Part shown: in pieces, positions 1 to 26,578 of the stretch | Layout: the number at the start of each line of letters is the position of its first letter | Position numbering within the stretch: the first letter of the stretch is position 1 | DNA from: an uncultured Leptospirales bacterium | GTDB lineage: Bacteria > Spirochaetota > UBA4802 > UBA5550 | Assembly (NCBI GenBank): GCA_964392365.1 | Contig: CAYMPH010000004.1 | Span: forward strand, 134,678 to 198,677 | Length of the DNA: 64,000 bases | Direction of reading: 5' to 3' | Position numbers and translations under genes: made by a program | The notes under the pieces: model-generated | Told to the model about the DNA's origin: nothing | The model's database searches: none | Seen by the model: only the letters and a program-made list of their open reading frames with translations

Positions 1-453
1 ACGTTTTGAATCCTGCGGAGTCATCATCATTGTTCTCCAGCATAACGAGGCTAGATCATTTGCACCGCCCGATCCGGGGAAACGCACTTTAGGTTTTGAA
101 TGATCATTGCCTATCATTGTTGAGTTGATATTTCCGTACATATCAATCTGAGCTCCGCCGAGAAATGTATAATCCACCATTCCGCGCTGGCAGGTTTCCA
201 TTATTTCCGGCATTGAACTTGCCATGATTGCCTTATGAAATGTCCGCGAGTCACCCACTGAAATAGGCATTGCAGGCAGAAACGGCGCAACTCCGCCTGC
301 TTCAAACATGATACATAAATTAGGTGAATGGGTTTTCTGGGACAGCATTGCTGCAGCGCATGGAGCGCCGGTTCCGACTACAACAGTTGCCCCGTCTTCG
401 AGATTGCGAGCTGCTATACAGATCATCAGCTCCATTGAATTGAAATCAGCCAT
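1..453 (-). CDS. CoA-transferase beta subunit (glutaconate CoA-transferase GctB-like), partial; C-terminus lies beyond the window start
   Basis: Reverse-complement translation from the ATG at 451-453 gives MADFNSMELMICIAARNLEDGATVVVGTGAPCAA...GGAQIDMYGNINST...RFPGSGGAND, typical of family I CoA-transferase B subunits. Its start overlaps the upstream gene's TAA by 1 nt (TAATG). Confidence 0.75.
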   Translation of the reverse strand, partial: MADFNSMELMICIAARNLEDGATVVVGTGAPCAAAMLSQKTHSPNLCIMFEAGGVAPFLPAMPISVGDSRTFHKAIMASSMPEIMETCQRGMVDYTFLGGAQIDMYGNINSTMIGNDHSKPKVRFPGSGGANDLASLCWRTMMMTPQDSKR

Positions 454-1457
454 TACTTTTTACCTCCGGGTTCAGTATCGATAAGAAATTCCTGAGCTCT
501 GAGTTTCTGAATCTTTTTAATGCCGCCGTTCAATTCTAGATATTCATAAAAATCTTTCGTTCCGTATATCTGTTTATCCATAAATTTTTTAAATTCGTCA
601 GGGTCTTTTTCAGCAGCAAGCCATTCCTTGATATATACTTCATCGGAAAAATATTCATACGGCATATTTCCCGGATAGCTTCCAAATGGAACTTCAACTA
701 CAGCATCTACACACCAGAACGGTATAAAGGTGCTCTCTGGATTCTGCCGGATTTCTTCATTAGTGATCAGACGTTCTGTTGTAAGTACAACCCTCTTCGA
801 TGCTTTAGCAAGATCCTGGTCAGACACAGAAGCGCCGTAAACACGTGCATTGCCGTATATGTCGCATTCATGAACATGGATTGCTGCAAAGTCCGGATAG
901 AGCGCAGGAAGAGCTGCGAATTTTTTCCCAGTGAAAGGGCATTCTATTTCTTTTGCAGCGCTGTATTCAAAAGTATCTGTACCGAGTATATTCCTCGTGG
1001 GCATAAAAGAGAGTCCCATTGCAGCAGCCTTCAGTCTCCATGAGAGCGAGGCATTTGTCCATTCGGTAAGTTTTATTTTCCCGCTCTGAACAGCTCTTCT
1101 GGCATTCGGCGACAGCCCTCTGGCTTCAAGTCCTATTATGTAAGCCACGTCGCATCTGTCTATGCATTCGCCGCCTACTAGTATCTGAAAGTCGTGCGTG
1201 GCAGTATGTCCGGCAAGAGCAAGATTCTTTTTTTTCTGTCGAACTATCTCATGCAGTATAGCGGTTGGTATTCTGTTTGCTCCGAAACCGCCAATCCCGA
1301 TATAGTCACCGTCTTTGAGCATGGTCCTGACAACCTCATCTGCAGTTGAAATTTTTGATTTCAACGCACGGGATTTGGTTTTAAAAAATGCCCTTGCATT
1401 ATCAGGATCCGGATCTGTGAAAAGTTCATTTCGTCCAGTTTTAAGTTGTACGCTCAT
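453..1457 (-). CDS. CoA-transferase alpha subunit (glutaconate CoA-transferase GctA-like)
   Basis: 334 aa ORF. The GDYIGIGGFG, HVHECDIYGN and EEIRQNPESTFIP motifs resemble GctA/3-oxoacid CoA-transferase A subunits. It is translationally coupled to the B subunit. Confidence 0.75.
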   Translation of the reverse strand: MSVQLKTGRNELFTDPDPDNARAFFKTKSRALKSKISTADEVVRTMLKDGDYIGIGGFGANRIPTAILHEIVRQKKKNLALAGHTATHDFQILVGGECIDRCDVAYIIGLEARGLSPNARRAVQSGKIKLTEWTNASLSWRLKAAAMGLSFMPTRNILGTDTFEYSAAKEIECPFTGKKFAALPALYPDFAAIHVHECDIYGNARVYGASVSDQDLAKASKRVVLTTERLITNEEIRQNPESTFIPFWCVDAVVEVPFGSYPGNMPYEYFSDEVYIKEWLAAEKDPDEFKKFMDKQIYGTKDFYEYLELNGGIKKIQKLRAQEFLIDTEPGGKK

Positions 1458-1531: not shown

Positions 1532-3346
1532 TTAAGCTTTATCTTCTACATACATTGATTCAATAATTTCTTTATATTTTTCTTTTATTACATTTCTCTT
1601 AACTTTTAATGAAGGTGTCAGATCACCGCTTTCCTGAGAAAACTCTTTCTGAACAATAGTATATTTTTTTATGGTTTCATAACGGGCAAGATGGTTGTTA
1701 AGTTCGTTAACATGCTCCTGAACAATTTTAAGAAAATCCTTATTTGTAAGCAGTTCTTCCGGCTTAGAGAATAAAATTTTATTTTCCATGGCAAGCTTTG
1801 CCGCCTGCTCGAGATTGATATTGCAAAGTGCAGTAAGATATTTTCTCAGATCTCCAATAACTATAAACTGTGTAAATAGCGGATCAGACTTGAAAAGATT
1901 TTCAATCTTCTGCGGAGCGACATTTTTTCCGCCGGAAGTAATGATCAGATCTTTTTTTCTATCTGTAACAAGTAAAAAACCGCTTTCATCAAAATAACCT
2001 ATATCGCCAGTCATCAGATATCCGTCATCTGTAAAAGCTTCTCTGGTCTCTTCTTCCATTTTCCAGTATCCCTTGCAGACATTTCCGCCTTTTAAAAGTA
2101 TTTCTCCATCATCTGCAATTTTTATATTCATGCAGGGTATCGGAGCGCCTGTAGTTCCGATTTTATAATTGGCAATATTCTGCATTGTAGCAGGTGCGCA
2201 GCATTCTGTCATGCCGTATCCCTGAATAACCATAATTCCCGCAGCATTAAAAAAACGGATTATCTCAATAGATGTAGGAGCGCCTGAAGCGGTCATCCAG
2301 CGCACACGTCCGCCAAGAGCATTCTGTAAATTTTCAAAAATCATCTTGTATGCTATTCTATATTTTATTCTCAATAAAAACGGGATTCGCCTTTTTGCTT
2401 CTCTGCGTTCACTTATTTTCGTGCCGACCTTCTGCCCCCAGTAAAATATTTTTCTTTTTAATGGAGATGAAGCTTCTACCTTTGAAATTATCTTCTGGTA
2501 TACCTTTTCGCAAACCCTGGGAACAGCGAGAACAACAGTAGGCTTCTTATCATAAAGATCTGCAAGCAGCGTATCAATGCTTTCAGCGTATGAGGATGTA
2601 ATCCCTACATACATGCCGTACCAGTGGCCTGCAACACGTTCAAAAACGTGACTTAAAGGAAGAAATGGAACAGTTTGATCCGTATCATAAGCATAGTGAG
2701 GTTCAACCTGATCAAGAGCTTTAATAACAGAGATCACATTATTATGAGTAAGCATCGCTCCTTTTGGAAGTCCTGTAGTTCCGGATGTATAAACAATTGT
2801 TGCAAGGTCTTCAAGATCAGCATCATCTGCAAGCTTCTCAAACAATGCCTCATTTTTTTTATATTCTTCGCGGCCTATTTTAAACAGATCATTAAAGCTT
2901 AAAACAAAATCCGGCGTGTTGTCTGCATCCTCATTTTTCATTACAATAATTTTCTGAAGCCCTTTGAAACGCTCTTTAACATATAAAGCTTTTTTCAGCT
3001 GAATTTTGTTTTCAACAATCATAATTTTTGATTCTGAATTGCTCACAATATATTCAGCTTCCTCATCAGTCAGGGTTGGATAGATAGGGATAACACAGGC
3101 GCCTATACCAAGAATTCCCATATCTGAATAAAGCCATTCAAGCCTGTTTTCAGAAAGGATTGAAACTCTGTCGCCTTTTCTAACACCAAACGAATACAGG
3201 GCCATACCAACAGTCCGCGATCTTTCATAATAATCATTCCACGAAGCGCTTTCCCATTTTCCGTTTAATTTTTTTTCGATAGCAAGACGGTCGCCGTATT
3301 TTTTTGCGCGATTTCTAAAAACCTGATTTATCGTTTTTTCTTCCAT
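1532..3346 (-). CDS. long-chain fatty acid-CoA ligase (AMP-forming acyl-CoA synthetase)
   Basis: 604 aa ORF with the AMP-binding motif YTSGTTGLPKGAMLTHNN and a downstream TGD...GY motif. SD AAGGGGGA lies upstream. Confidence 0.85.
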   Translation of the reverse strand: MEEKTINQVFRNRAKKYGDRLAIEKKLNGKWESASWNDYYERSRTVGMALYSFGVRKGDRVSILSENRLEWLYSDMGILGIGACVIPIYPTLTDEEAEYIVSNSESKIMIVENKIQLKKALYVKERFKGLQKIIVMKNEDADNTPDFVLSFNDLFKIGREEYKKNEALFEKLADDADLEDLATIVYTSGTTGLPKGAMLTHNNVISVIKALDQVEPHYAYDTDQTVPFLPLSHVFERVAGHWYGMYVGITSSYAESIDTLLADLYDKKPTVVLAVPRVCEKVYQKIISKVEASSPLKRKIFYWGQKVGTKISERREAKRRIPFLLRIKYRIAYKMIFENLQNALGGRVRWMTASGAPTSIEIIRFFNAAGIMVIQGYGMTECCAPATMQNIANYKIGTTGAPIPCMNIKIADDGEILLKGGNVCKGYWKMEEETREAFTDDGYLMTGDIGYFDESGFLLVTDRKKDLIITSGGKNVAPQKIENLFKSDPLFTQFIVIGDLRKYLTALCNINLEQAAKLAMENKILFSKPEELLTNKDFLKIVQEHVNELNNHLARYETIKKYTIVQKEFSQESGDLTPSLKVKRNVIKEKYKEIIESMYVEDKA

Positions 3347-3370: not shown

Positions 3371-4150
3371 TTATCTGCCTTTAAAAACAGGTTTCCGCTT
3401 TTCAAGAAAAGCGGTTATTCCCTCTTTCTTATCATCGCTTTCAGCAAGTTTCCCGAACAATCTGCTTTCCAGTTTTAAAGCTTCTTCTTTTGACAGCTCA
3501 ACACTGAGGTTAATTGTTTCAATTATTGCAGCAACAGAAAGAGGTCCTTTAAATGCAATATCCTTTGCAAGTTTCATTGCCTCTTCCATCAATTTATCCG
3601 GCGGCGCAACCCTGTTCACAAGACCAACTCTCTCAGCTTCTTCAGATCCGATAAACTTTCCTGTCAGAATATACTCCATGGCTTTTGCTTTCCCGAGAAG
3701 CCTCGTCATTCTCACAATTCCTCCGAATGCAGGCATAATGCCAAGCATCACCTCTGGAAGTCCCATTTGAGCTCCCTCTGCTGCAATACGCATATGGCAT
3801 GCAAGCGCCAGTTCAGTTCCGCCTCCCAGGCACGCCCCGTTAATTGCTGCAATGACCGGTTTCTTTGAATTCTCTATAAGATTTGTTATTTCATGTGCCC
3901 TTCCTGAAAGGCGCTCACCTTCTTCAGCATTCTTAATATTCTGAACTTTGTTCACGTCCGCTCCTACAACAAAAGTTGCTCCGGCTGCTGTAATAATAAC
4001 TGCCTTAACCCTGTCATCGACTTCAATCTGATGTATGCAGAATTCGAGCTCAAGCATTGTAATTTCATCCAGCGAGTTCATCGGAGGATTATTGATTATA
4101 ATCGTTGCAACACCCTTATCCGTTACATCATAATTGACTTTTTGTCCCAT
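3371..4150 (-). CDS. enoyl-CoA hydratase (crotonase family)
   Basis: 259 aa ORF with the crotonase fold signature AAINGACLGGGTELALACHMRIAAE. Confidence 0.85.
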   Translation of the reverse strand: MGQKVNYDVTDKGVATIIINNPPMNSLDEITMLELEFCIHQIEVDDRVKAVIITAAGATFVVGADVNKVQNIKNAEEGERLSGRAHEITNLIENSKKPVIAAINGACLGGGTELALACHMRIAAEGAQMGLPEVMLGIMPAFGGIVRMTRLLGKAKAMEYILTGKFIGSEEAERVGLVNRVAPPDKLMEEAMKLAKDIAFKGPLSVAAIIETINLSVELSKEEALKLESRLFGKLAESDDKKEGITAFLEKRKPVFKGR

Positions 4151-4285: not shown

Positions 4286-5713
4286 CTATCTTTTCTTAAG
4301 ACCCATAATTTCTCTTGCTTCGTCAGGAGTTGCAGGTGTACGTCCGAGAGCCTCGGCAATTCTTACAGCCCATTCAACCTGCTCATAGCTTCCCTTGGCA
4401 AGATCGCCGTTAGGAACGCGTATATTATCCTCAAGACCAACCCTCATATGTCCGCCCAGCAGACATGACTGAGTTATGGCAGGGAACTGATCCTGTCCGA
4501 CACCGCAGGTTGTGAAATTGCAGTTATCAGGCATCGCATTTTTCAGTGCAATAAATGCATCCGCTCTGAAAGCCTGGCCTCCGGCAACTCCCCAAACAAA
4601 ATTGAGATTATACGGCGCGCTGAAAATTCCCTGTTTGCCTATAAGCATCCAGTTGTCGAGTCCGCCCATATCATAGATTTCAATTTCAGGTTTTACTCCG
4701 TTATCAAGCATGGCTTTGGCAAAATCCTGAAGCATAGTGAAGGTGTTTTCAAAAACAAAATCTATAAATATCTTACCGGTCTTACGGTCGATTATACTGA
4801 AATTCATTGTATTGGTATTCAATGAAGCCATTTCCGGCTTAATAGCTACTATCTGCGAAATCCTCTGCTCAGGAGTCTTGCCCATGCCAACTGCAGAACT
4901 GAGATTGACTATCAGCTCAGGACACTTGTCCTTAATAGCATCATGTGTAGCCTTGATTCTCGCATGATCATGAGTAGCCATACCGTTGGATTCTCTTGCA
5001 TGCACATGAACCATTGCAGCTCCTGCCTTATAGCATTTATAAGCTTCATTTGCAAATTCTTCGGGTTCATATGGAACATTTTCATTCTGATTTTTCATTG
5101 TAGCTGCTCCTGTAAGAGCTGCAGTAATTATAACGTTGCTATACATATCTCCATGGCCTCCTTTCTGTTTTTTCGCCTGAGGAACTGATGCTACTGACGG
5201 ATCTGAAGAACCAGCGGACTCAGATCTGTCTTTCATAGAAATCTTCGAGACTTTACTCGGCTTAAAGTGATCTATATCAAGAATTGTACTGGTCGTTTCT
5301 TTTGCAAATACAGCTTCCACTCTCATTCCTGTTTTTACTTCAGAAATATCTGTTTCTTCAAGAATATGCATAAAAGGCGAATCTGCACCATCGAGTTTTA
5401 TCAGCGCCAGTACAAATGGAGCCTTCCTCGGCAGATGTTTGTCATCATACCTGACTACTGTAAAATTGACAACCTCACCTGTGTTCTGAAGTTCAACCCA
5501 GTTGTCTCTTATGTCTGTAAAATCTTTTTCACATACCTGACGGGGCGGAACATATACTTTATTGCACTTGGGGCAATTAACACCCATAATTATTTTTTTA
5601 TCCCTGATCGTAGTAATAAATTTACTGCCGAGTCTTCCAGGGAAGTATGTATAGGGGAGTGCCAGTTTCCCTTCTACTATGAAACAATCTTTCTTATCGT
5701 ATTCAAGGCTCAT
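4286..5713 (-). CDS. fusion protein: N-terminal DUF35 (Zn-ribbon + OB-fold, acyl-CoA-associated) and C-terminal BKACE/DUF849 beta-keto acid cleavage enzyme (3-keto-5-aminohexanoate cleavage enzyme Kce-like)
   Basis: N-terminus carries CPKCNKVYVPPRQVC (Zn ribbon) followed by an OB-fold-like region. C-terminus carries IITAALTGA...VHVHARE...PEIEIYDMGG...GGHMRVGLEDN...ATPDEAREI, the BKACE/Kce signature. Strong SD AAGGAGGGG. Confidence 0.8.
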   Translation of the reverse strand: MSLEYDKKDCFIVEGKLALPYTYFPGRLGSKFITTIRDKKIIMGVNCPKCNKVYVPPRQVCEKDFTDIRDNWVELQNTGEVVNFTVVRYDDKHLPRKAPFVLALIKLDGADSPFMHILEETDISEVKTGMRVEAVFAKETTSTILDIDHFKPSKVSKISMKDRSESAGSSDPSVASVPQAKKQKGGHGDMYSNVIITAALTGAATMKNQNENVPYEPEEFANEAYKCYKAGAAMVHVHARESNGMATHDHARIKATHDAIKDKCPELIVNLSSAVGMGKTPEQRISQIVAIKPEMASLNTNTMNFSIIDRKTGKIFIDFVFENTFTMLQDFAKAMLDNGVKPEIEIYDMGGLDNWMLIGKQGIFSAPYNLNFVWGVAGGQAFRADAFIALKNAMPDNCNFTTCGVGQDQFPAITQSCLLGGHMRVGLEDNIRVPNGDLAKGSYEQVEWAVRIAEALGRTPATPDEAREIMGLKKR

Positions 5714-5724
5714 CGTTCCCCTCC

Positions 5725-7266
5725 TTATTGATCTATTTCAAAATACTTGATATCGAAAATGCTGCCCACACGCTTTTCATTCCATACAGGCCTGACTCGT
5801 GTGCCGGCAACGTCGTTTTTCCCATTCTTGATCAGATCAATCTGATCACGTCTTACAAGGTGAGCAAAAGTGTCATTGCCGGTACATCCATCGAGAAGTA
5901 TATTCAGCATACCATATGGAGTTTCCCTTGTTTCTCCTGTAAGAGGATCAGGGCTGGAAAAATAAACATATTCCATATAGCGGACCTGGCCTTTCGGACC
6001 GACTTCCAGCCATTCTGTTGCAGGAATACGGCACTCTGCACAAACATCACGTGCAGGCAGATGAACCCTTCCGCATTTCGGGCATTTATTTGTAAAAATT
6101 TTCTTTTCTTTGAGAGCATGAAGAAATCTTCCCATTATAGGGCCGGTTGCAAAACGCTGATTTACTGATATTGTTTTTTTCAGAACAAGCAGTTCTTCCT
6201 TTTCAGCCTCTCCTCCAGTTGCAGGTGGTATATACTTGGAAAAAATTTCACCAAGTTTTAAAGCTAACTCGGTTTTGCCTTCTATTGAAGCCCTTCCAGC
6301 AGAAAGAAGCGAAAAAGGATCTGTCTTGCCGAGCATAACGTCAACCCAGTCTTTCGCTTCATTAACGCACAATTTAGTTGTCGGCTTTTCAGGCTGACCT
6401 GTTTTAAGATCGCACTTGCCGCCTTTGATATAAGCAGTCCATTTACCGCCGCCCTCTCCGCCGATATCATATGTAATTGTTGCATCAAGATCAGGAACAG
6501 CTTTAGGCTGAAATCTATGAACAAGAGTACCGAACATATCGAGGATGTAATCCTTAGTAGTGAACTCAACTTTTTTAGGTTCGTACTTCGCAAAAATTTC
6601 TCCAAGCTTAAGAGCAATCTCTGTTTTTCCTTCAATTGAAGCTCTGCCTGCTGATAATAGCGAAAAAGGATCTGTCTTGCCGAGCATAACATCTACCCAG
6701 TCTTTTGCTTCATTTACATTAAGCTTGGTTGTAGGTTTTTCCGGCTCGCCTGTTTTAAGATCACATTTGCCGTCTTTTATATATGCAGTCCAGACTCCTC
6801 CGCCTTCTCCGCCGATATTATACGTGATGCTAGCATCAAGCCCCGGAGCTCCCTTAGGCTGAAAACGGGAAACAAGGGTGCTGAACATATCCTGAATATA
6901 ATCAGCTGTGCCCATTTCTTTCTTGGCAGGTACAAATTTTTTAAACATTTTTGTCGTTTTACCGAAAGTACCCATATCACCTTCAAGCTTTACCTTTCCC
7001 GACATGAAAGCGTTTGTTGCATCAACCTTTCCTATATTAACACCGATGAAATTTTCCTCGCTTGCTTTCATAATTGTTACGCAGCCGGAAAGATCATCAG
7101 TCTTTTCCACTTTCATTGAATCATTCTTTACTGCAAGCTTCCACTTGCCCGCCCCTTCAATGTCGTATCCGAATAAAGCGTCAACACCCTTTGCGCCTTC
7201 AACACGAAAGCGGTCTTTCATGGTGTTGAATATATCTTCTACCTTTACTCCCCAGTATTCTGTCAT
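5725..7266 (-). CDS. triple SCP2 (sterol-carrier-protein-2) domain protein with C-terminal DUF35 (Zn-ribbon/OB-fold) domain
   Basis: Three tandem repeats of about 110 aa (YIxDMFxTLVxRFQPK...ITYxIGGEGGGxWTAYIKxGKCDLKTGxPEKPTTKL), then CPKCGRVHLPARDVCAECR. The likely true start is the ATG at 7264-7266 (MTEYWGV) preceded by AGGAGGA. The longer track ORF to 7386 overlaps the upstream gene. Confidence 0.75.
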   Translation of the reverse strand: MTEYWGVKVEDIFNTMKDRFRVEGAKGVDALFGYDIEGAGKWKLAVKNDSMKVEKTDDLSGCVTIMKASEENFIGVNIGKVDATNAFMSGKVKLEGDMGTFGKTTKMFKKFVPAKKEMGTADYIQDMFSTLVSRFQPKGAPGLDASITYNIGGEGGGVWTAYIKDGKCDLKTGEPEKPTTKLNVNEAKDWVDVMLGKTDPFSLLSAGRASIEGKTEIALKLGEIFAKYEPKKVEFTTKDYILDMFGTLVHRFQPKAVPDLDATITYDIGGEGGGKWTAYIKGGKCDLKTGQPEKPTTKLCVNEAKDWVDVMLGKTDPFSLLSAGRASIEGKTELALKLGEIFSKYIPPATGGEAEKEELLVLKKTISVNQRFATGPIMGRFLHALKEKKIFTNKCPKCGRVHLPARDVCAECRIPATEWLEVGPKGQVRYMEYVYFSSPDPLTGETRETPYGMLNILLDGCTGNDTFAHLVRRDQIDLIKNGKNDVAGTRVRPVWNEKRVGSIFDIKYFEIDQ

Positions 7267-7276
7267 ATTCTCCTCC

Positions 7277-8476
7277 TTACCAGTTAAGGTCCTTTTCAAG
7301 CATTGTGAGAACTGTCCACATAGTTCCGCCGAAACCCGACGCAAGAGCATGATTAACTTCAGTAGGTATCTGATGGTCTCCTGCATCTCCCCTGACCTGC
7401 AGAGCAGCCTCAGCTACGCGTATCAGCGCAGTAGCTCCTATAGGATTAGACGCAATAACACCTCCCGAAGGATTGATAGGCATCTTTCCGCCGATCATTA
7501 TCTCTTTATTTTCCACCAGTTTCAGATGCTCATCACCCTTAAGCTGGAAGAAATCCCTTATCCAGTCAACACCCCACCAGGATGCTGGATCATACATTTC
7601 AAACACATCAAAATACTCAAGAGGCTCTTTAATATTATTTCTTTTATAAAGATTTTCAGCAGCAAAACGATGAGTCATAGGCACAGGGTATTTTTCATCA
7701 TATCCGAAAAAGATGAATGTTTCCTCTCTATGAACTGTTATATGATCGCGGACCCAAACCGGCTTTTTGGAAATCTTTTTTGCCGTTTTTTCTTCAGCAT
7801 ATATAACTACACACGCTCCATCAGACTGCGAACACATTTCAATCAGCTTCAGATCTCCAACAAGTTTAGGTGATGTCTTAATAAGGTCATCTATCTGTTC
7901 AAATTCTAGACCAAAAGCGCGGTGAGCATTCTTATTCTTAACTGCATGCTTATCCATAATTATTCTATACATAAGGGAGGCACGCTTGGCCCTTTCTTCG
8001 CCGAATTCGCTGATTGATTCATATGCCTTGGATCCGGTAAGTGCACCTGTCTGAAGATTCCTGAACCAGAGAGGATCCGCCATGTTCGTAATACCGCCGG
8101 TGGTGTGCCCCTCCTGCTGCTTCTCAAAACCGATAGCCATAACAATATCATACATTCCGGATGCTACCAGGTTGTCTGATGCACATGAAAGTGTTGCACC
8201 GACTGTGCCCCCGGTTGTTATCCGTATTGATTCCTTGCCGTATGCCCCGGTACCGAGAGTATGCCAGCAGTCCGGCTGGTGAATCATTTCAAACAACTCC
8301 ATATTTCCATGCACAATACAGTCTATATCTTTCATGGTAAGCCCTGCATCTTTTAGTGCTGCACTTACAGCTTCATGTATCATTTCAGGCTGATTTACAT
8401 CTTCACGGTGACTGGAAAATTTCGTCATGCCGATTCCTATAATTCCGACATTTCTGTTTTTCTTTCTATGAGCCAT
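7277..8476 (-). CDS. thiolase-like protein (SCP-x / Ltp2-type, thiolase fold)
   Basis: 399 aa ORF with thiolase-fold N- and C-domains (GIIGIGMTKF..., INPSGGVIASNPIGATALIRVAE). SD AAGGAGG. The expected His of the G-H-P motif appears as Asn (SNPIGAT). Confidence 0.7.
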   Translation of the reverse strand: MAHRKKNRNVGIIGIGMTKFSSHREDVNQPEMIHEAVSAALKDAGLTMKDIDCIVHGNMELFEMIHQPDCWHTLGTGAYGKESIRITTGGTVGATLSCASDNLVASGMYDIVMAIGFEKQQEGHTTGGITNMADPLWFRNLQTGALTGSKAYESISEFGEERAKRASLMYRIIMDKHAVKNKNAHRAFGLEFEQIDDLIKTSPKLVGDLKLIEMCSQSDGACVVIYAEEKTAKKISKKPVWVRDHITVHREETFIFFGYDEKYPVPMTHRFAAENLYKRNNIKEPLEYFDVFEMYDPASWWGVDWIRDFFQLKGDEHLKLVENKEIMIGGKMPINPSGGVIASNPIGATALIRVAEAALQVRGDAGDHQIPTEVNHALASGFGGTMWTVLTMLEKDLNW

Positions 8477-8488
8477 AATATAACCTCC

Positions 8489-9634
8489 TTATTTCTCCAT
8501 TATTACAACTGCCTGATGCTGGGCAGCCGGACCATAAGAGGCCTGCGCAAGGGCTTTCTTTACACCTTTCACCTGGCGCTCGCCCGCTTCTCCGCGAAGC
8601 TGCAGAAAACATTCAATTGCTCTTGCAGCCCCGCCCAACAGAAGAGGATTGCCGTTAAGCATACCGCCGGAAAGATTAACATTATATTTATCCATTCCGC
8701 CGTCTTCAATCCACTTGCCGCCTTTGCCTTCATCAGCAATACCAACACCCTCTGCCCACATAGGCAGCTGATAAGCAGCCTGGTCGCTTAATTCAAATAT
8801 ATTGATTTCTTTTTTAGGATCTTTTATGCCTGACATTTTATATGCTCTTGAAGATGCATTTTTTAATGAAAAATTTGAAGCAAGGTCTTTATCTCCAAGG
8901 AAATAGCTGTCCATGCAGCTTCCGTATCCTGTAATCCAGATAGGGTTGTCTGTAAATTCCTTAACACGATCTTCTGTACAGAGAAGCATTCCATATGCCC
9001 AGTCAGTAACCGGATAATAATGAAGATCCCTTATAGGATCTGAAAGCAGCGGGGAATTCATTACTTCTTTTTCATCAACCATTTTGTTGTCGCGCGCGTA
9101 TGGATTCTTTTTGGAATTTTTCCTGGAACGTACAACAATCTTTGCAAGATGTTCCTCGGACAATCCGGATTTTTCCATATACGCTCTTGCCTGCAATGCG
9201 CTCACATTTAAATGGTCCATGCCAAGCGGCCTGCAGTAAAACGGATCAAAAGTCAGGTTTGTAACCATCCTTCTGCTCTCACCCTGAGATTCCTTGCAGT
9301 GCCCCATAAATAAAATAACATCATCGTGGCCTGACTTTATGCACGACATCGCATATCCAAGGCCGTTGATGCTTTCCTGCGCCATTTTTTCTTCGCCCCT
9401 GAACTGCGCTCCAACAACATCAGTGACTCCGTTATTTGAAATGGTACGGGCATCAAACATGTCATCAGAACAGGTGATAATATTCCTGATTCCCTTATCC
9501 ATATCAAATGAAACTTTAGTCTGGGTCTTGATAGATTCAAAACATTCATGCAGCATATTCTGAAATCGCGCATGCCAGGCATCGGCTTCGTTCTTAATCT
9601 GTGCTACTGCACATAACGCAACACGATTACTCAT
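8489..9634 (-). CDS. thiolase-like protein (second paralog, probably non-canonical or inactive thiolase fold)
   Basis: Likely start MSNRVALCAV at the ATG 9632-9634 preceded by AAGGAGGA. The C-terminal NLSGGMLNGNPLLLGGAARAIE matches the thiolase GHP region, again with Asn in place of His. The track ORF extends to 9709. Confidence 0.6.
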   Translation of the reverse strand: MSNRVALCAVAQIKNEADAWHARFQNMLHECFESIKTQTKVSFDMDKGIRNIITCSDDMFDARTISNNGVTDVVGAQFRGEEKMAQESINGLGYAMSCIKSGHDDVILFMGHCKESQGESRRMVTNLTFDPFYCRPLGMDHLNVSALQARAYMEKSGLSEEHLAKIVVRSRKNSKKNPYARDNKMVDEKEVMNSPLLSDPIRDLHYYPVTDWAYGMLLCTEDRVKEFTDNPIWITGYGSCMDSYFLGDKDLASNFSLKNASSRAYKMSGIKDPKKEINIFELSDQAAYQLPMWAEGVGIADEGKGGKWIEDGGMDKYNVNLSGGMLNGNPLLLGGAARAIECFLQLRGEAGERQVKGVKKALAQASYGPAAQHQAVVIMEK

Positions 9635-9893
9635 ACTTTTGTTCCTCCTTACTGAAATAATTAAACAGTTACTTAACTCTTCCGCCTGCAGCCTGATATT
9701 AATCTGCACAGTTTGATAAATAATCCTGAAAAAAAATAGAACTTAAAGGTTAGTACTTTGTAAATTCAGCAAAAATTTAATTTTTTGTCATCCCAGTGAA
9801 AACGGGGATCCAGAATTCAGAAATGGATTCACCCGAGGGTGCAGGCCATCGCCTGCGCGGGAATGACAGTTTGTATTCAAATCGAATCCGGAA

Positions 9894-10442
9894 CTATATA
9901 TAACAGTTCCAGAAATCTCCTTTTTTTACAGCCCTTATAATTGAATCTTTGTCCCTGTCAGTATCCATCTCGATCCAGGCTCTTCCAATGTTGATATTAT
10001 CATGCGAATCATCAGAAGCAATTCTGGGATACCCCCAGTCTATATCATCGAAAACGCTTTCCCTGAATCCCTTAGAGGTTATTTCAACTGCATCAATCGG
10101 ATAAAGTTTTGAAAGGTCTTCAAGTCTTGATTTGACCTGTTCAACTGAAAGATCATATTCTCCAATATGATTAAAAATATGCAGGACCTCGTTATCTCCC
10201 TCGATCCGGTTAACGTGTACATATCCTTTTACAAAAACTGTCAGTTCCAAACCGTAAAATAAAATCATCCTGGTACTTACACTATTCAATGCACTCCGGT
10301 AATCCGCTTTCAGCAGATAATCATGATCTGTCACAGCGATAAAATCATAACCCAGACTTTCGTATGCATCAGCCATCTCCTGCGGAGTCAGCTTTCCGTC
10401 CGAAAACGACGTATGAGAGTGAAGACAGCCTCTTAGAATCAA
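9894..10442 (-). CDS. PHP-domain metal-dependent phosphoesterase
   Basis: 182 aa ORF with the N-terminal HSHTSFSDG motif and later His/Asp clusters typical of PHP phosphoesterases. Confidence 0.7.
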   Translation of the reverse strand: MILRGCLHSHTSFSDGKLTPQEMADAYESLGYDFIAVTDHDYLLKADYRSALNSVSTRMILFYGLELTVFVKGYVHVNRIEGDNEVLHIFNHIGEYDLSVEQVKSRLEDLSKLYPIDAVEITSKGFRESVFDDIDWGYPRIASDDSHDNINIGRAWIEMDTDRDKDSIIRAVKKGDFWNCYI

Positions 10443-10471: not shown

Positions 10472-10497
10472 TTATTGGTCGGATGTTCAACCAATAA
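10472..10497. promoter_or_regulatory. 27-nt palindromic element TATTGGTCGGATGTTCAACCAATAAAT, copy 1 (probable operator/promoter element about 30 nt upstream of the PHP gene start)
   Basis: Identical to the copy at 11951-11977. Inverted 7-nt arms TATTGGT/ACCAATA with a 10-nt spacer. Confidence 0.5.
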
Positions 10498-10569: not shown

Positions 10570-11232
10570 CTACATCATTGCTATTAATTTATCAGAAATA
10601 ATAAGATCAGCATCAGTTAATGACCTGATCTCTTCTATATTTGTTGATGAATGAATTTCTGTTAAAATCAGACCTTTCCCGTTTATAATCATTACACCCA
10701 GCTCTGTTACGATCATGCTTACTTTGCCTTTAGCTGTTATCGGAAGTGTGCATTTTTTAAGAATCTTTGACTTCCCGCCTGCTGTATGAGTAGTAGCAAC
10801 AATAACTTTTTTTGAACCTGCAGCAAGATCCATTGCACCGCCTATACCAGGAGTTTTTTTACCCGGAATTATCCAGTTGGCAAGATTCCCATCCTGGTCA
10901 ACCTCCAGAGCCCCCAGAACGGTAATATCTATATGACCTCCTCTAATTAAAGAAAACGAAAGTGACGTATCAAAAATTGCACCATGTGAAAGAACTTCAA
11001 CATGCTGTCCTCCTGCGTTGGTAATATTTGAATTAATTCTATCACCCTTAACAATCTCCCCCATTCCGGTTAAACCGTTTTCTGAAAAAATTGTAACTTC
11101 AACTTTTGGAGGAATATAATTTGAAACAAGCGACGGCAGGCCAATTCCAAGATTTACAGTCTGCCCGTCTTTCAGTTCCCTGCCTATTCTTTTAGCGATA
11201 ATTTCCTGAGCCATATTTTTATCTGTTATCAT
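10570..11232 (-). CDS. atoA: 3-oxoacid CoA-transferase subunit B (acetate/butyrate-acetoacetate CoA-transferase beta)
   Basis: 220 aa ORF with [10 protein letters not shown]...[19 protein letters not shown] typical of the AtoA/ScoB family. Confidence 0.85.
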
Positions 11233-11241
11233 ATCAGCACC

Positions 11242-11898
11242 CTACTTTTTCCCTTCGATTACATAATCAACCACAACACCAGGAGTTACAAAATTTTCCG
11301 GTTCAATATCTCCGAATTCTACAATATTTTCAGCCTGCACAATTACAGTGTCTGCAGCCAAAGCCATAGTCGGATTATAATTTCTTGATGTGCCGAAATA
11401 TCTCGTATTCCCGTATGGGTCAACCTCGCTGCCTCTGATCAGAGCTACGTCTGCGCGAAGCGGCAGCTCAAGAATATAATCCTTCCCGTCAATTTCAACT
11501 TTCCGTTTTCCATCCTCAACAAGAGTGCCAAGGCCAATCTGGGTAAGCACACCGCCGAGACCTGCTCCGCCTGCGCGTATTCTTTCTATAAGAGTTCCCT
11601 GAGGATTGAATTCAACTTCCATGGATTTATCATTATAACGCTTAATAGCTTCAGGATTGGTTCCGAGATGAGTTGTTATATATTTTTTTATTCTTCCAGC
11701 AGCAATAAGACGCCCTATTCCGCGCTCAACATAAGATGAATCATTGCCTATAACTGTGAGATTTGCCAGTCCCATATCAATCATTAGATCAATAATATTT
11801 TCCGGAGTTCCGACTCCAAGAAAACCGCCAATCATGACTGTCATCCCGTCTTTTAAAAAAGGCTTAATGCCCTCGATATCGGTAATTTTGTTTTTCAT
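11242..11898 (-). CDS. atoD: 3-oxoacid CoA-transferase subunit A (acetate/butyrate-acetoacetate CoA-transferase alpha)
   Basis: 218 aa ORF with DGMTVMIGGFLGVGTPENII...RGSEVDPYGN typical of the AtoD/ScoA family. SD AGGAGAG. Confidence 0.85.
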   Translation of the reverse strand: MKNKITDIEGIKPFLKDGMTVMIGGFLGVGTPENIIDLMIDMGLANLTVIGNDSSYVERGIGRLIAAGRIKKYITTHLGTNPEAIKRYNDKSMEVEFNPQGTLIERIRAGGAGLGGVLTQIGLGTLVEDGKRKVEIDGKDYILELPLRADVALIRGSEVDPYGNTRYFGTSRNYNPTMALAADTVIVQAENIVEFGDIEPENFVTPGVVVDYVIEGKK

Positions 11899-11950: not shown

Positions 11951-11977
11951 ATATTGGTCGGATGTTCAACCAATAAA
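11951..11977. promoter_or_regulatory. 27-nt palindromic element TATTGGTCGGATGTTCAACCAATAAAT, copy 2 (about 55 nt upstream of the atoD start)
   Basis: Exact repeat of 10472-10497. Confidence 0.5.
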
Positions 11978-25480: not shown

Positions 25481-26578
25481 TCAGGACTTTTCAAGAATTT
25501 CATCCCTGTATTTCTGAGGCGTCATTCCTGTAGCTTTATCAAAGGCTCTGTAAAAAGCGGTTTTTGAGTTAAAACCGACAACATAAGCCACTGAGATTAT
25601 TGAGCTTTCCGGCTCTTCAATTATAATTTTTTTTGCATCGCGTATTCTATAACCGTTTATGAAGGTACTAAAATTCATTTTGAATTTTTCGTTTAAAAGC
25701 TGGGAAAGCTGATGATGTGTGATTGAAAGAGCCTTAGCAAGACTTCCAAGCGATATTTTTTCATCCCTGTACATTTTATTCTGTTCCATAAGATTATCGA
25801 GCCGTTTCCCAACCGCATTAAAATCCATACCCTCAAGCAGAGAATGCCCGTAGCGGCGCTTTTCTGCTTCAACCATTAAAAGCTGCAGAAATTTCGGCTG
25901 CCGCTGTCCGACAAAATATGAGCCTATCATCATAAAACTAGTAAGAAGCATGCCGCTTCTCAATATATTCATTGATCCAAGAGTATACCCTGCTGCAAGT
26001 AGTACAACAACTGCAATAGACAGTAGAATATATCCCATCGTGGTACTCACAACAGGAGGCTGCTCGGTGATCTTCCATAAAATAATTATTTTTTTAAACA
26101 GTACACCCAGATAAATGACCATCTGCACACCTGCAGCAGCAAATAATAATTTAATATAAACGCTCATACTGATATCAGTTCCGTTAAACAGATGATTAAG
26201 TATACGGCTTTTATCTCCGGAAGACATCATCATATAGTAAATATCAGCTGCAAGCGCAGCAAGTGCAGGAATAAGCAGAAAAATACTCTTGCGCGATAAA
26301 TTTTCTTCAGGAAGAATTACAAGGTAATAGGCATAATACAAAAGCGGCGTAAGCACATACAGAAATGTTAGATGAAAAACAAAAATCCACGGCCATATAA
26401 AGACCAAACCGTTATTTATAAATGCAAGCTGCATCAGGCACAAGCCCAGGCAGAAAAACATTATTGAAAGATTATAATTTGCAAGACGCCTGACTTTAAC
26501 TAAAAGCTGTCCTATAGAAAAAAGTATGGACAAACCTCCTGAAAAAAAAACAAAATAAGTTATACCGGTTTCAAACAT
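25481..26578 (-). CDS. membrane-anchored AraC-family transcriptional regulator
   Basis: 365 aa ORF with about 6 N-terminal TM segments and a C-terminal AraC HTH (ISLGSLAKALSITHHQLSQLLNEKF...VGFNSKTAFYRAF). Confidence 0.75.
   Translation of the reverse strand: MFETGITYFVFFSGGLSILFSIGQLLVKVRRLANYNLSIMFFCLGLCLMQLAFINNGLVFIWPWIFVFHLTFLYVLTPLLYYAYYLVILPEENLSRKSIFLLIPALAALAADIYYMMMSSGDKSRILNHLFNGTDISMSVYIKLLFAAAGVQMVIYLGVLFKKIIILWKITEQPPVVSTTMGYILLSIAVVVLLAAGYTLGSMNILRSGMLLTSFMMIGSYFVGQRQPKFLQLLMVEAEKRRYGHSLLEGMDFNAVGKRLDNLMEQNKMYRDEKISLGSLAKALSITHHQLSQLLNEKFKMNFSTFINGYRIRDAKKIIIEEPESSIISVAYVVGFNSKTAFYRAFDKATGMTPQKYRDEILEKS

What the first reader, a model, noticed from the sequence alone, without database searches (positions are those of the whole stretch)
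4286..9709. Operon coupling two thiolase-fold proteins to DUF35 scaffolds fused to a triple SCP2 lipid-binding module and to a BKACE beta-keto-acid cleavage enzyme
Four tightly packed minus-strand genes with strong SDs and gaps of 10 nt or less. They are thiolase-like 1, thiolase-like 2, SCP2x3-DUF35, and DUF35-BKACE. DUF35 (Zn-ribbon + OB fold) is the established scaffold that recruits thiolase-fold enzymes into complexes, for example the archaeal thiolase/HMG-CoA synthase/DUF35 complex and the Ltp2-ChsH2(DUF35) steroid aldolase complex. Here DUF35 appears twice. One copy is fused to three SCP2 sterol/lipid-carrier domains. The other is fused to a Kce-like BKACE enzyme, a family that cleaves beta-keto acids using acetyl-CoA. 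I do not know of a characterised system combining BKACE with a DUF35/thiolase scaffold. The flanking genes (crotonase, acyl-CoA synthetase, CoA-transferase) suggest a substrate-channelled beta-oxidation-like or retro-Claisen machine for a bulky lipid or sterol-like acyl substrate.
Basis: partly seen in the sequence, partly recalled or inferred. Interest (0 to 1): 0.8.

Follow-up and report, generated by a model that had tools for sequence, protein, structure and literature searches.

The report
BKACE tethered to Cys-less thiolase complex
Four tightly coupled genes, conserved in many uncultured anaerobic bacteria, appear to build an undescribed enzyme complex in which adaptor (DUF35) domains attach lipid-binding modules and a beta-keto-acid cleavage enzyme to a pair of thiolase-like proteins that have lost every thiolase catalytic residue, which suggests a non-thiolytic way of cutting carbon chains in bulky lipids.

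Summary
Window 4286-9634 (minus strand) holds four translationally coupled genes: thiolase-like 381 aa, thiolase-like 399 aa, SCP2x3-DUF35 (513 aa) and DUF35-linker-BKACE (475 aa).

The fusion is real. More than 80 protein clusters and 36 species-level MAGs (uncultured Spirochaetota, Syntrophales) carry it. Other Desulfobacterota have the same cluster with DUF35 and BKACE as adjacent separate genes, so this is a Rosetta-stone fusion.

1. Neither thiolase-like protein can be a thiolase. The nucleophilic Cys is Gly or Ala, the GHP His is Asn, and the HDCF Cys is lost. The 399-aa subunit instead has the Gly plus Tyr-Asp signature of the Ltp2/Sal steroid aldolases.
2. The conserved unit is larger: PHP, the cassette, (crotonase), acyl-CoA synthetase, GctAB-like CoA-transferase, a second DUF35/thiolase-like module, TetR, two ACADs and two MaoC hydratases. 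Part of it lies beyond the window edge.

Best reading: a DUF35-scaffolded, non-thiolytic C-C cleavage complex for a hydrophobic or branched acyl substrate. A retro-aldol step supplies acetyl-CoA (and possibly a beta-keto acid) to the tethered BKACE, which releases acetoacetate. The substrate and the aldolase activity are inferred, not shown. I found no published description. I class it as a new variant of a known kind.

The parts
8489..9634 (-). Thiolase-fold subunit A (381 aa), Cys-less. Ala85 sits at the nucleophile position, the GHP motif reads G-N329-P, and the HDCF motif reads S-D-Q-A. It carries an invariant GH(C)KES motif.
   Evidence: Pfam Thiolase_C_1 2.1e-21. PDB alignments to 4yzo, 7yvy and 6esq. 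19 orthologues show 85% mean column identity. SD AAGGAGG lies before ATG 9634.
7277..8476 (-). Thiolase-fold subunit B (399 aa), Cys-less. Invariant Gly90 sits at the nucleophile position. The Y295-D-P-A motif replaces HDCF, and Asn344 replaces the GHP His. This is an aldolase-like signature.
   Evidence: The motifs TTGG[TV]xG, EMYDP and NPSGG..NPIGAT occur in nearly all of 122 homologues. Compare Sal/Ltp2 in PMC12329534.
5725..7266 (-). SCP2 x3 - DUF35 adaptor (513 aa). SCP2-1 is about aa 5-113, SCP2-2 about aa 128-228 (nt 6584-6883), and SCP2-3 about aa 245-345 (nt 6233-6532). DUF35 spans aa 365-513 (nt 5728-6174), with a canonical C-x2-C-x10-C-x2-C zinc ribbon.
   Evidence: Pfam SCP2 2.7e-32 in 3 stretches, zf-ChsH2 6e-07. 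PDB hits to DUF35 3irb and 6esq_E and to SCP2 domains. Tandem DNA repeat with 351-nt period, 78% identity. The OB part is 36.6% identical to the DUF35 of L008.
5258..5713 (-). DUF35 domain of the fusion protein (aa 1-152): zinc ribbon C47-x2-C50-x10-C61-x2-D64 plus an OB fold.
   Evidence: Pfam OB_ChsH2_C 2.5e-13. 60% identical to the free-standing 154-aa DUF35 of L044 and L045. Alignment. AF2 strands 42-152.
5147..5257 (-). Flexible linker (about aa 153-189). It is variable, gap-rich and low in complexity.
   Evidence: The alignment shows variable, gapped columns between two highly conserved domains. AF2 pLDDT is below 50 for residues 155-188.
4286..5146 (-). BKACE domain (aa 190-475), a Zn-dependent TIM barrel. 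The residues H236/H238, E343/E345 and E428-D429 are conserved. Kce Glu14 is replaced by Ala.
   Evidence: Pfam BKACE 1.4e-92. Alignment to Kce 2y7d and to 3lot. Invariant columns. NCBIfam Kce, 3,5-dioxohexanoate and 3-oxoadipate equivalogs all score below their cut-offs.
9894..10442 (-). Small PHP-domain metallo-phosphoesterase-like protein (182 aa). It is a conserved upstream neighbour of the cassette, and its role is unknown.
   Evidence: Pfam PHP and PHP_C. Present in 31 of about 39 loci at the same position, including the unfused clusters.
3371..4150 (-). Crotonase-type enoyl-CoA hydratase (259 aa). It holds this position only in the Spirochaetota versions of the cluster.
   Evidence: Pfam ECH_1 1.8e-65. 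Synteny.
1532..3346 (-). Long-chain-type acyl-CoA synthetase (604 aa), a conserved downstream neighbour.
   Evidence: Pfam AMP-binding plus AMP-binding_C_3. NCBIfam FadD11-like and long-chain-fatty-acid--CoA ligase. Present in 34 loci.
453..1457 (-). GctA-like CoA-transferase subunit A (334 aa).
   Evidence: Pfam CoA_trans. Nearest PDB entry is glutaconate CoA-transferase 1poi_A, 2.1e-36. Present in 24 loci.
1..456 (-). GctB-like CoA-transferase subunit B, N-terminal part, cut by the window edge. The catalytic Glu motif IMFEAG is retained.
   Evidence: Translation of the minus strand. The orthologue L008:15731-16501 hits 1poi_B at 1.7e-46, with Glu aligned to the GctB ESG motif.
10570..11898 (-). 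AtoA/AtoD-like 3-oxoacid (acetoacetate) CoA-transferase pair (220 + 218 aa). It is specific to this window and is a plausible consumer of the acetoacetate that BKACE makes.
   Evidence: ORFs. Pfam CoA_trans 5e-40 for 10570-11232. Absent from most related loci.

Best explanation
The four genes encode one hetero-oligomeric complex.

Proposed architecture. The two different thiolase-fold proteins form a heterodimeric core. [quoted passage not shown] One DUF35 carries two or three SCP2 lipid-binding domains, which hold or deliver a hydrophobic acyl chain. The other DUF35 carries an intact Zn-dependent BKACE on a flexible linker of about 35-45 residues.

Proposed chemistry. The core cannot perform thiolysis, because both subunits have lost the Cys, His and Cys catalytic residues. 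The 399-aa subunit keeps the Gly plus Tyr-Asp signature of the Ltp2/Sal retro-aldolases. I therefore propose the following steps:
1. The core cleaves a hindered or branched 3-hydroxyacyl-CoA, made by the cluster's ACAD and MaoC/crotonase enzymes, by a retro-aldol reaction. This releases acetyl-CoA.
2. The tethered BKACE uses that acetyl-CoA at once to convert a beta-keto acid into an acyl-CoA plus acetoacetate. If the branch carries a carboxymethyl group, as in 3-hydroxy-3-alkylglutaryl-CoA, the beta-keto acid could be the carbonyl product of the lyase itself.
3. The co-encoded GctAB-like and AtoDA-like CoA-transferases then activate the acetoacetate.

Net effect: non-thiolytic, O2-independent shortening of a bulky lipid chain.

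Shown: domain architecture, loss of the thiolase residues, an intact BKACE site, the fusion/fission pattern, and conserved synteny.
Inferred: physical complex formation, the aldolase activity, the hand-off of acetyl-CoA or beta-keto acid, and the substrate class.
For: - Domain calls.
- Translational coupling, TAAGGAGG-N6-8-ATG at all three junctions, with identical spacing in Deltaproteobacteria and Spirochaetota loci.
- The cassette is conserved in 36 species-representative MAGs plus others.
- Rosetta-stone evidence. In L044 and L045 the orthologous DUF35 (60% identity) and BKACE (76-77% identity) are adjacent separate genes inside the same cluster.
- Very strong purifying selection on all four proteins across phyla, with 82-85% mean column identity. 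This fits multi-partner interfaces.
- Catalytic-residue analysis. The thiolase nucleophile is Gly90 or Ala85, the GHP His is Asn, and HDCF is YDPA or SDQA. Gly plus Y-D is the pattern of the Sal and Ltp2 aldolases, which bind DUF35 (PMC12329534).
- The BKACE metal and catalytic residues are conserved relative to Kce.
- AF2 gives two confident domains joined by a linker with pLDDT below 50.
- Cluster content: ACS, GctAB-like transferase with its catalytic Glu, two ACADs, two MaoC hydratases, and a second Cys-less thiolase-like/DUF35 module. No 3-hydroxyacyl-CoA dehydrogenase or Cys-bearing thiolase appears among the conserved neighbours within about 10 kb.
- An aldehyde:ferredoxin oxidoreductase and a GMC alcohol oxidoreductase recur nearby. 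This fits aldehyde or ketone intermediates.
Against: - No experiment and no multimer model shows that these proteins bind each other.
- The 399-aa subunit lacks the second catalytic residue of the known aldolases. It has Pro297 where Sal has Cys304, and Asn344 where Ltp2 has Tyr344. Aldolase activity is therefore not established.
- The 381-aa subunit has no Tyr at the motif.
- A BKACE 75% identical to this domain sits in Desulfobacteraceae next to a glycyl-radical enzyme, an SDR and a GctAB-like transferase, with no thiolase-like or DUF35 genes (L004). The BKACE substrate may therefore be a small common beta-keto acid unrelated to the thiolase-fold core.
- No enzyme in the cluster obviously makes a free beta-keto acid. 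There is no carboxylase and no conserved hydroxy-acid dehydrogenase.
- The AF2 model of the 399-aa protein was too poor (pLDDT 56) for structural comparison.
Confidence: 0.45

Rival explanations
1. BKACE-centred machine with an inert scaffold. The Cys-less thiolase-fold heterodimer has no catalytic role. It serves as a structural hub or an acyl-CoA/lipid-binding platform, like the non-catalytic thiolase-fold partner in PhlACB or the thiolase-like proteins TLP/SLP. It concentrates SCP2-bound hydrophobic beta-keto acid and acetyl-CoA at the BKACE, or takes up the acyl-CoA product.
For: All canonical catalytic residues are lost in both subunits. The second aldolase residue is absent. The closest PDB relatives include thiolase-like proteins of unknown activity, 3zbg and 5ab4. 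BKACE is the only subunit with an evidently intact active site.
Against: 85% column identity across two phyla includes the would-be active-site motifs (TTGG, YDP, NPSGG..NP). That is more than a passive scaffold usually needs. The cluster carries a second Cys-less thiolase-like pair and no true thiolase, so some C-C cleavage must be done by these folds.
Confidence: 0.25
2. Biosynthetic direction. The complex runs BKACE in reverse (acyl-CoA + acetoacetate -> long-chain beta-keto acid + acetyl-CoA) and/or runs the aldol step in the condensing direction. The products would be beta-keto or 3-hydroxy lipids or methyl ketones, and SCP2 would hold the product.
For: The BKACE reaction is near equilibrium (established knowledge of the Kce mechanism). 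DUF35 complexes are known in biosynthesis, namely the archaeal thiolase/HMGCS complex, PhlACB and the Streptococcus HMGS/ACAT/DUF35 complex (PMC12960953, listed).
Against: The neighbours are catabolic: a FadR/YsiA-type TetR, two ACADs, an acyl-CoA synthetase and CoA-transferases. The cluster has no reductase, ACP or export genes.
Confidence: 0.08
3. No complex. The genes are merely co-regulated, and DUF35 acts only as an acyl-CoA-binding domain attached to BKACE and to SCP2. The thiolase-like proteins would work independently.
For: DUF35 was first proposed to be an acyl-CoA-binding module (PMC2954200). No physical evidence is available here.
Against: Every solved DUF35 structure found here is bound to a thiolase-fold dimer: 6esq/6et9, 7pxp, 5m3k and 6ok1. 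The cassette has two DUF35 domains for two thiolase-fold subunits, and module 2 has the same 2:2 ratio. The gene junctions are coupled.
Confidence: 0.1
4. Ordinary lysine-fermentation Kce, or an assembly or frameshift artefact that joined two genes.
For: [quoted passage not shown]
Against: The NCBIfam Kce equivalog scores 264 bits against a cut-off of 382. Kce Glu14, which binds the 5-amino group (PMC10470551), is Ala here. The neighbours include no lysine-fermentation genes. The fusion recurs in more than 80 clusters from independent assemblies.
Confidence: 0.02

Closest known systems
Ltp2-ChsH2(DUF35) and Sal-Shy(DUF35) steroid side-chain aldolase complexes (PDB 6ok1; PMC12329534)
   Same: A thiolase (SCP2-thiolase-like) fold with Gly in place of the nucleophilic Cys and a Tyr-Asp motif in place of HDCF. 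A DUF35 zinc-ribbon/OB partner flanks a central dimer. MaoC hydratases and paired ACADs are co-encoded. Variant zinc ribbons also occur there (C3H in Shy, C3D here).
   Different: Here the core is a heterodimer of two paralogues. The second catalytic residue (Ltp2 Tyr344, Sal Cys304) is absent. The DUF35 domains are fused to SCP2 and to BKACE rather than to a hydratase. The hosts are uncultured anaerobes. Sequence similarity to Ltp2 is weak (E about 1e-7).
[quoted passage not shown]
   Same: DUF35 bridges a thiolase-fold dimer to a second enzyme that consumes the CoA-ester product. The thiolase of that complex is among the best PDB hits for both subunits (E 1e-23 to 1e-29).
   Different: The partner enzyme here is a BKACE TIM barrel, not HMGCS, and it is tethered covalently. 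The thiolase-fold subunits lack Cys, His and Cys, so they cannot make or cleave acetoacetyl-CoA thiolytically.
BKACE family (Kce, dehydrocarnitine cleavage enzyme, triacetate acetoacetate-lyase; Pfam PF05853)
   Same: Full-length BKACE domain with conserved Zn ligands and catalytic residues. CoA-transferase genes are co-encoded to deal with the acetoacetate.
   Different: It is fused to a DUF35 domain, and the representative-library search found no other such fusion. It falls below the cut-offs of all curated BKACE equivalogs. The amine-binding Glu14 is Ala. No dehydrogenase that would generate the beta-keto acid is conserved next to it.
SCPx / MFE-2 peroxisomal branched-chain beta-oxidation enzymes
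   Same: SCP2 lipid-carrier domains are attached to thiolase-fold and MaoC-hydratase enzymes that handle 2-methyl-branched acids and bile-acid side chains. SCP2-thiolase type 1 (6hsj) is the top PDB hit of the 399-aa subunit.
   Different: SCP2 is attached through a DUF35 adaptor, in 2-3 tandem copies, rather than fused to the thiolase. The thiolase fold here is not a thiolase.
PhlACB Friedel-Crafts acyltransferase (PDB 5m3k)
   Same: Two different thiolase-fold proteins plus a DUF35 (PhlB) carry out C-C acyl transfer on a 1,3-dicarbonyl-type substrate. PhlC is a PDB hit.
   Different: There is no FabH-like PhlA and no catalytic Cys. BKACE and SCP2 are absent from PhlACB.

Membership tests
BKACE (PF05853) | Full-length match to the family profile above the curated threshold | tested here: met
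   310.3 bits against a cut-off of 24.8, residues 194-472 covering profile positions 2-274 of 274.
BKACE (PF05853) | Zn ligands (His-x-His, Glu) and the catalytic Glu/Asp of Kce | tested here: met
   H236-V-H238, E343/E345 and E428-D429 align with the Kce HLH, EVEVY and FED motifs. They are invariant in 20-29 orthologues.
BKACE (PF05853) | Cleaves a beta-keto acid with acetyl-CoA to give acetoacetate plus an acyl-CoA | not testable with these tools
   This needs an enzyme assay.
Kce (lysine fermentation, NCBIfam NF052387) | Equivalog score above the cut-off, and Glu14 that binds the 5-amino group | tested here: not met
   263.9 bits against a cut-off of 382. Glu14 is replaced by Ala.
DUF35 / ChsH2-like (PF01796 + PF12172) | C-terminal OB fold | tested here: met
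   Fusion: 50.2 bits against a cut-off of 27.1, with AF2 beta-strands 72-152. SCP2 protein: no Pfam OB hit, but 36.6% identity over 142 aa to a DUF35 that has one.
DUF35 / ChsH2-like (PF01796 + PF12172) | Cys4 rubredoxin-like zinc ribbon | tested here: inconclusive
   The SCP2 protein has a canonical C-x2-C-x10-C-x2-C ribbon (29.6 bits, above the 23.2 cut-off). The fusion has C-x2-C-x10-C-x2-D (19.1 bits, below the cut-off). Its unfused orthologues keep the fourth Cys.
DUF35 / ChsH2-like (PF01796 + PF12172) | Binds a thiolase-fold dimer | not testable with these tools
   Supported only by 2:2 stoichiometry and conserved synteny.
Thiolase (EC 2.3.1.9 / 2.3.1.16) | Nucleophilic Cys at the N-terminus of helix N-alpha-3 | tested here: not met
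   The 399-aa subunit has invariant Gly90 and the 381-aa subunit has Ala85, aligned to Cys of 6hsj and 6esq.
Thiolase (EC 2.3.1.9 / 2.3.1.16) | His of the G-H-P motif, and the acid/base Cys (HDCF in SCP2-type thiolases) | tested here: not met
   The first motif reads S-N344-P or G-N329-P. The second reads YDPA or SDQA.
Ltp2 / Sal thiolase-fold aldolases | Gly at the former nucleophile position plus the catalytic Tyr of the Y-D-x-F/Y motif | tested here: met
   For the 399-aa subunit only: G90 and Y295-D296, found in nearly all of 122 homologues. The motif definition comes from PMC12329534. The 381-aa subunit has Ser at the Tyr position.
Ltp2 / Sal thiolase-fold aldolases | Second catalytic residue (Ltp2 Tyr344 or Sal Cys304) | tested here: not met
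   Pro297 and Asn344 occupy those positions.
Ltp2 / Sal thiolase-fold aldolases | Retro-aldol cleavage of a 3-hydroxyacyl-CoA | not testable with these tools
   This needs an enzyme assay.
Archaeal thiolase/HMGCS/DUF35 complex | An HMG-CoA synthase partner and a catalytically competent thiolase | tested here: not met
   No HMGCS gene appears among the conserved neighbours. The thiolase residues are lost.
SCP2 (PF02036) | Match to the SCP2 profile | tested here: met
   111.5 bits in three stretches. PDB hits to MFE-2 and SCP2 domains.

The most novel reading that the evidence does not exclude
The cassette is the core of an undescribed, O2- and thiolase-independent route by which strict anaerobes (Syntrophales, uncultured Spirochaetota, other Desulfobacterota) degrade beta-branched or otherwise 'beta-oxidation-blocked' lipids, such as isoprenoid chains, sterol or hopanoid side chains, and ring-cleavage products. 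An aldolase-type pseudo-thiolase would cut at a tertiary 3-hydroxy carbon. The DUF35-tethered BKACE would then directly convert the resulting acetyl-CoA plus beta-keto acid into an acyl-CoA plus acetoacetate. This would be a new kind of channelled retro-aldol/retro-Claisen tandem.
Probability: 0.2. Interest if true: 0.85.

Novelty: new variant of a known kind. Interest (0 to 1): 0.7.

Why it matters
DUF35-scaffolded thiolase-fold complexes are a small but growing class. Known members include the archaeal mevalonate entry complex, benzoylsuccinyl-CoA thiolase, the steroid aldolases and PhlACB. This would add a partner of a different fold and chemistry (BKACE). It would also add a built-in lipid carrier, and a core made of two paralogous subunits that have lost thiolase chemistry.

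The system is abundant and very strongly conserved in uncultured syntrophs and spirochaetes from digesters, aquifers, peat and sediments. [quoted passage not shown] Working it out would correct a widespread misannotation. It could also reveal how recalcitrant branched lipids are broken down without oxygen. The fusion/fission pair gives a ready-made experimental handle for studying substrate channelling.

Tried and rejected
- Assembly artefact or frameshift: rejected.
- Lysine-fermentation Kce: rejected.
- Canonical thiolase function: rejected by residue analysis.
I redid it with database proteins.
- The AF2 model of the 399-aa subunit was too poor (pLDDT 55.9) to use for fold search, so I made no structural ranking of aldolase against thiolase neighbours.
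- The representative-library search found no independent DUF35-BKACE fusions elsewhere. It found only DUF35-DUF35 tandems and unrelated long BKACE fusions.
- Literature searches for BKACE+DUF35, Kce+Smithella, DUF35+SCP2+thiolase+DUF849 and the NetSyn BKACE survey found no description.
- I considered that the GctAB-like pair might be an AibAB-type (de)carboxylase that supplies the carboxymethyl branch. It keeps the catalytic Glu of GctB, which the aligned AibB chains lack, so a true CoA-transferase is more likely.
- I considered a link to the limonene pathway (PMC12583861). That paper offers only a conceptual parallel, the cleavage of 3-substituted 3-hydroxyglutaryl-CoA. It describes no shared enzymes.
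- The idea that the two subunits correspond to actinobacterial Ltp3/Ltp4 rests only on weak NCBIfam 'lipid-transfer protein' hits and on my memory of Wilbrink et al. 2012. I could not test it.

Full report
**1. What is in the sequence**

The window holds four consecutive minus-strand ORFs between 4286 and 9709. Two of the mechanical ORF starts are too long.
- Gene 1 starts at ATG 9634. An AAGGAGG lies 8 nt upstream, and orthologues are 381-386 aa.
- Gene 3 starts at ATG 7266 (MTEYWG...), as in all orthologues.

The three internal junctions are 12, 10 and 11 nt long. Each reads TAAGGAGG-N6-8-ATG, so the stop codon overlaps the next Shine-Dalgarno sequence. A 259-nt gap precedes the first gene. 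A 135-nt gap with a G+C-rich hairpin follows the last. The four genes therefore look like one translationally coupled unit.

**2. Domains**

| Protein | Pfam result |
|---|---|
| 475 aa | OB_ChsH2_C (2.5e-13, res 72-136), weak zf-ChsH2, then BKACE (1.4e-92, res 194-472) |
| 513 aa | three SCP2 stretches (2.7e-32), then zf-ChsH2 (6e-07) |
| 399 aa and 381 aa | Thiolase_C_1 (about 1e-21) |

- The C-terminal 149 residues of the 513-aa protein are 36.6% identical to a stand-alone DUF35 that has a clear OB hit.
- An AlphaFold2 model of the 475-aa protein gives two confident domains. They are joined by a segment (155-188) with pLDDT below 50. In the alignment this segment is the only variable, gap-rich part. 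It is a flexible tether.
- SCP2 copies 2 and 3 are a tandem duplication with a 351-nt period and 78% DNA identity. Most orthologues are about 396 aa with two SCP2 domains. Only the window, L008 and L015 have three.

**3. The fusion is real and is a Rosetta stone**
- More than 80 clusters (at 90% identity) of 470-480-aa proteins carry the same Pfam pair.
- A scan of one genome per species found the fusion in 36 MAGs. They are uncultured Spirochaetota/Leptospirales and Syntrophales (Smithella, Syntrophaceae, Syntrophus sp.).
- In two other deltaproteobacterial contigs (L044, L045) the same cluster has a 154-aa DUF35 gene followed 44-47 nt later by a 286-289-aa BKACE gene. These are 60% and 76-77% identical to the two halves of the window protein.
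- The unfused DUF35 has a canonical Cys4 ribbon. The fused form has C-x2-C-x10-C-x2-D in nearly all members.
- A search of 1.8 billion representative proteins found no second, independent DUF35-BKACE fusion.

**4. The conserved unit is larger than the finding**

Synteny analysis of 39 loci, together with Pfam annotation, gives this order:

(TetR) - PHP-domain protein - thl381 - thl399 - SCP2n-DUF35 - DUF35(-)BKACE - (crotonase, in Spirochaetota only) - acyl-CoA synthetase of about 610 aa - CoA-transferase A and B - a second module of two DUF35 and two thiolase-like genes - a 291-300-aa protein of unknown function - FadR/YsiA-type TetR - two ACADs - two MaoC hydratases.

- The window ends inside CoA-transferase B, so module 2 and the ACAD and MaoC genes lie outside it.
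- The CoA-transferase is closest to glutaconate CoA-transferase (1poi: 2e-36 for subunit A, 1.7e-46 for subunit B). It keeps the catalytic Glu.
- The conserved plus-strand clusters include no 3-hydroxyacyl-CoA dehydrogenase and no Cys-bearing thiolase.
- A cholesterol-oxidase-like GMC flavoprotein with a CxxCxxCxxxCP motif and an aldehyde:ferredoxin oxidoreductase occur nearby, in the window and in several deltaproteobacterial loci.

**5. The 'thiolases' are not thiolases**

I aligned both proteins, and profiles of 19 orthologues each, to SCP2-thiolase 6hsj, archaeal thiolase 6esq, 7yvy and 4yzo.

| Canonical thiolase feature | 399-aa subunit | 381-aa subunit |
|---|---|---|
| Nucleophilic Cys | invariant Gly90 | Ala85 |
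| His of G-H-P | Asn344 | Asn329 |
| HDCF loop (acid/base Cys) | Y295-D-P-A | S-D-Q-A |

- The motifs TTGG[TV]xG, EMYDP and NPSGG....NPIGAT occur in nearly all of 122 homologues of the 399-aa protein.
- The two thiolase-like proteins of module 2 also have Gly at the nucleophile position.
- In the steroid aldolases Sal and Ltp2, which are thiolase-fold proteins that bind DUF35, the nucleophile is Gly. The HDCF motif is YDCY or YDHF, and its Tyr is the catalytic base (PMC12329534).
- The 399-aa subunit shares that Gly plus Tyr-Asp signature. It lacks the second catalytic residue (Sal Cys304, Ltp2 Tyr344).
- Membership of the aldolase family is therefore partly met, and the activity is unproven.

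**6. The BKACE domain looks active but belongs to no characterised subtype**
- The Zn ligands and catalytic residues of Kce are conserved.
- The scores fall below the curated cut-offs for the Kce, 3,5-dioxohexanoate and 3-oxoadipate equivalogs.
- Kce Glu14, which binds the substrate amine (PMC10470551), is Ala here.
- One caution. A stand-alone BKACE 75% identical to this domain lies in a Desulfobacteraceae genome next to a glycyl-radical enzyme, its activase, an SDR and a related CoA-transferase. That locus has no thiolase-like or DUF35 genes (L004). BKACE plus GctAB-like transferase may therefore be a portable pair that acts on a common beta-keto acid.

**7. How it most likely works**

All solved DUF35 proteins retrieved here sit on thiolase-fold dimers. 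The cassette provides two DUF35 domains for two thiolase-fold subunits, and module 2 has the same 2:2 ratio. I therefore infer a heterotetrameric core: DUF35 - thl - thl' - DUF35'.
- One arm carries 2-3 SCP2 domains.
- The other arm carries BKACE on a flexible linker. BKACE enzymes are oligomeric (established knowledge for Kce), so higher-order assemblies are possible.

The cluster supplies activation (ACS or CoA-transferase), dehydrogenation (two ACADs) and hydration (MaoC, crotonase). It supplies no dehydrogenase or thiolase for the last two beta-oxidation steps. On that basis, the most economical chemistry is a retro-aldol cleavage of a hindered 3-hydroxyacyl-CoA by the Cys-less core. The BKACE would then consume the released acetyl-CoA together with a beta-keto acid, giving an acyl-CoA and acetoacetate.

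If the substrate is a 3-hydroxy-3-alkylglutaryl-CoA-type intermediate, the lyase would deliver both BKACE substrates in a 1:1 ratio. Such intermediates are proposed for limonene ring-cleavage products (PMC12583861). From my own knowledge, they are also proposed for C24-branched sterol side chains and for the Atu/Liu pathways. The CoA-transferases would then recycle the acetoacetate.

Only the architecture, the residue patterns and the synteny are shown. The complex, the activities and the substrate are inferred. I put this reading at about 0.45.

The main rival (0.25) is that the thiolase-fold core is a catalytically inert scaffold for a lipid-directed BKACE.

**8. Novelty**

No paper in the searchable library mentions BKACE together with DUF35. 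[quoted passage not shown] The system belongs to the known kind 'DUF35-scaffolded thiolase-fold complex'. It differs in having a new partner enzyme, a built-in lipid carrier and a doubly degenerate core. I class it as a new variant of a known kind, with interest 0.7.

Noticed in passing
window 10473-10496 and 11952-11975 (minus strand): An identical 24-nt palindromic element, TATTGGTTGAACATCCGACCAATA, occurs twice: 28 nt upstream of the PHP gene and 54 nt upstream of the atoD-like gene. None is expected by chance. It could be an operator for a TetR/FadR-type regulator or a hairpin.
   Followed up: partly
window 12040-13635 (minus strand): A GMC flavoprotein is related over its full length to cholesterol oxidase ChoxAB (NCBIfam E 5.8e-146, below the equivalog cut-off). 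It carries a ferredoxin-type CxxCxxCxxxCP motif (CHHCGECITGCP). Homologues 59-61% identical lie upstream of, and close to, the PHP gene and cassette in L028, L031 and L032. A second GMC gene lies at 23636-25312.
   Followed up: partly
window 19119-21047 (minus strand); L031 1620-3533: A tungsten-type aldehyde:ferredoxin oxidoreductase lies near the cluster in the window. It also lies upstream of the cassette in four deltaproteobacterial loci. This fits aldehyde intermediates.
   Followed up: no
L008 16526-19814; L002 13527-16805; L044 12575-15878 (outside the window): A second module of two DUF35 genes and two thiolase-like genes lies downstream of the CoA-transferase in 24-28 loci. Both of its thiolase-like proteins also have Gly at the nucleophile position. 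One keeps YDAF plus GHP, and the other has YQPY plus CNP.
   Followed up: partly
L004 4249-14574 (Desulfobacteraceae GCA_014237275.1): A stand-alone BKACE, 75% identical to the window domain, sits beside a 1008-aa glycyl-radical enzyme, its activase, a 3beta-HSD/epimerase-type SDR, a GctAB-like CoA-transferase and an acetyl-CoA hydrolase/transferase-GNAT fusion. This is a different and apparently undescribed BKACE context.
   Followed up: no
window 5522-5575 (fusion protein residues 47-64): The fourth zinc-ribbon Cys of the fused DUF35 is Asp (C-x2-C-x10-C-x2-D) in almost all fused orthologues. The unfused orthologues and L015 keep Cys.
   Followed up: yes
window 4745-4810 (fusion protein residues 302-323): A loop within the BKACE barrel (TMNFSIIDRKTGKIFIDFVFEN) is highly conserved, with many invariant residues, yet AF2 predicts it with pLDDT below 50. 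It may be a lid or an oligomer or partner interface.
   Followed up: no
window 26611-27591 and 25481-26578 (minus strand): A Rieske/VanA_C-type oxygenase lies next to an AraC regulator in a genome that also encodes an oxygen-sensitive AOR. The oxygen relationship of the organism is unclear.
   Followed up: no
representative library hits P0246, P0267, P0275, P0301: Proteins of about 310-330 aa contain two tandem DUF35 domains. This matches the adjacent DUF35 gene pairs of module 2, and it is another fusion that supports a 2:2 DUF35 to thiolase-fold stoichiometry.
   Followed up: no
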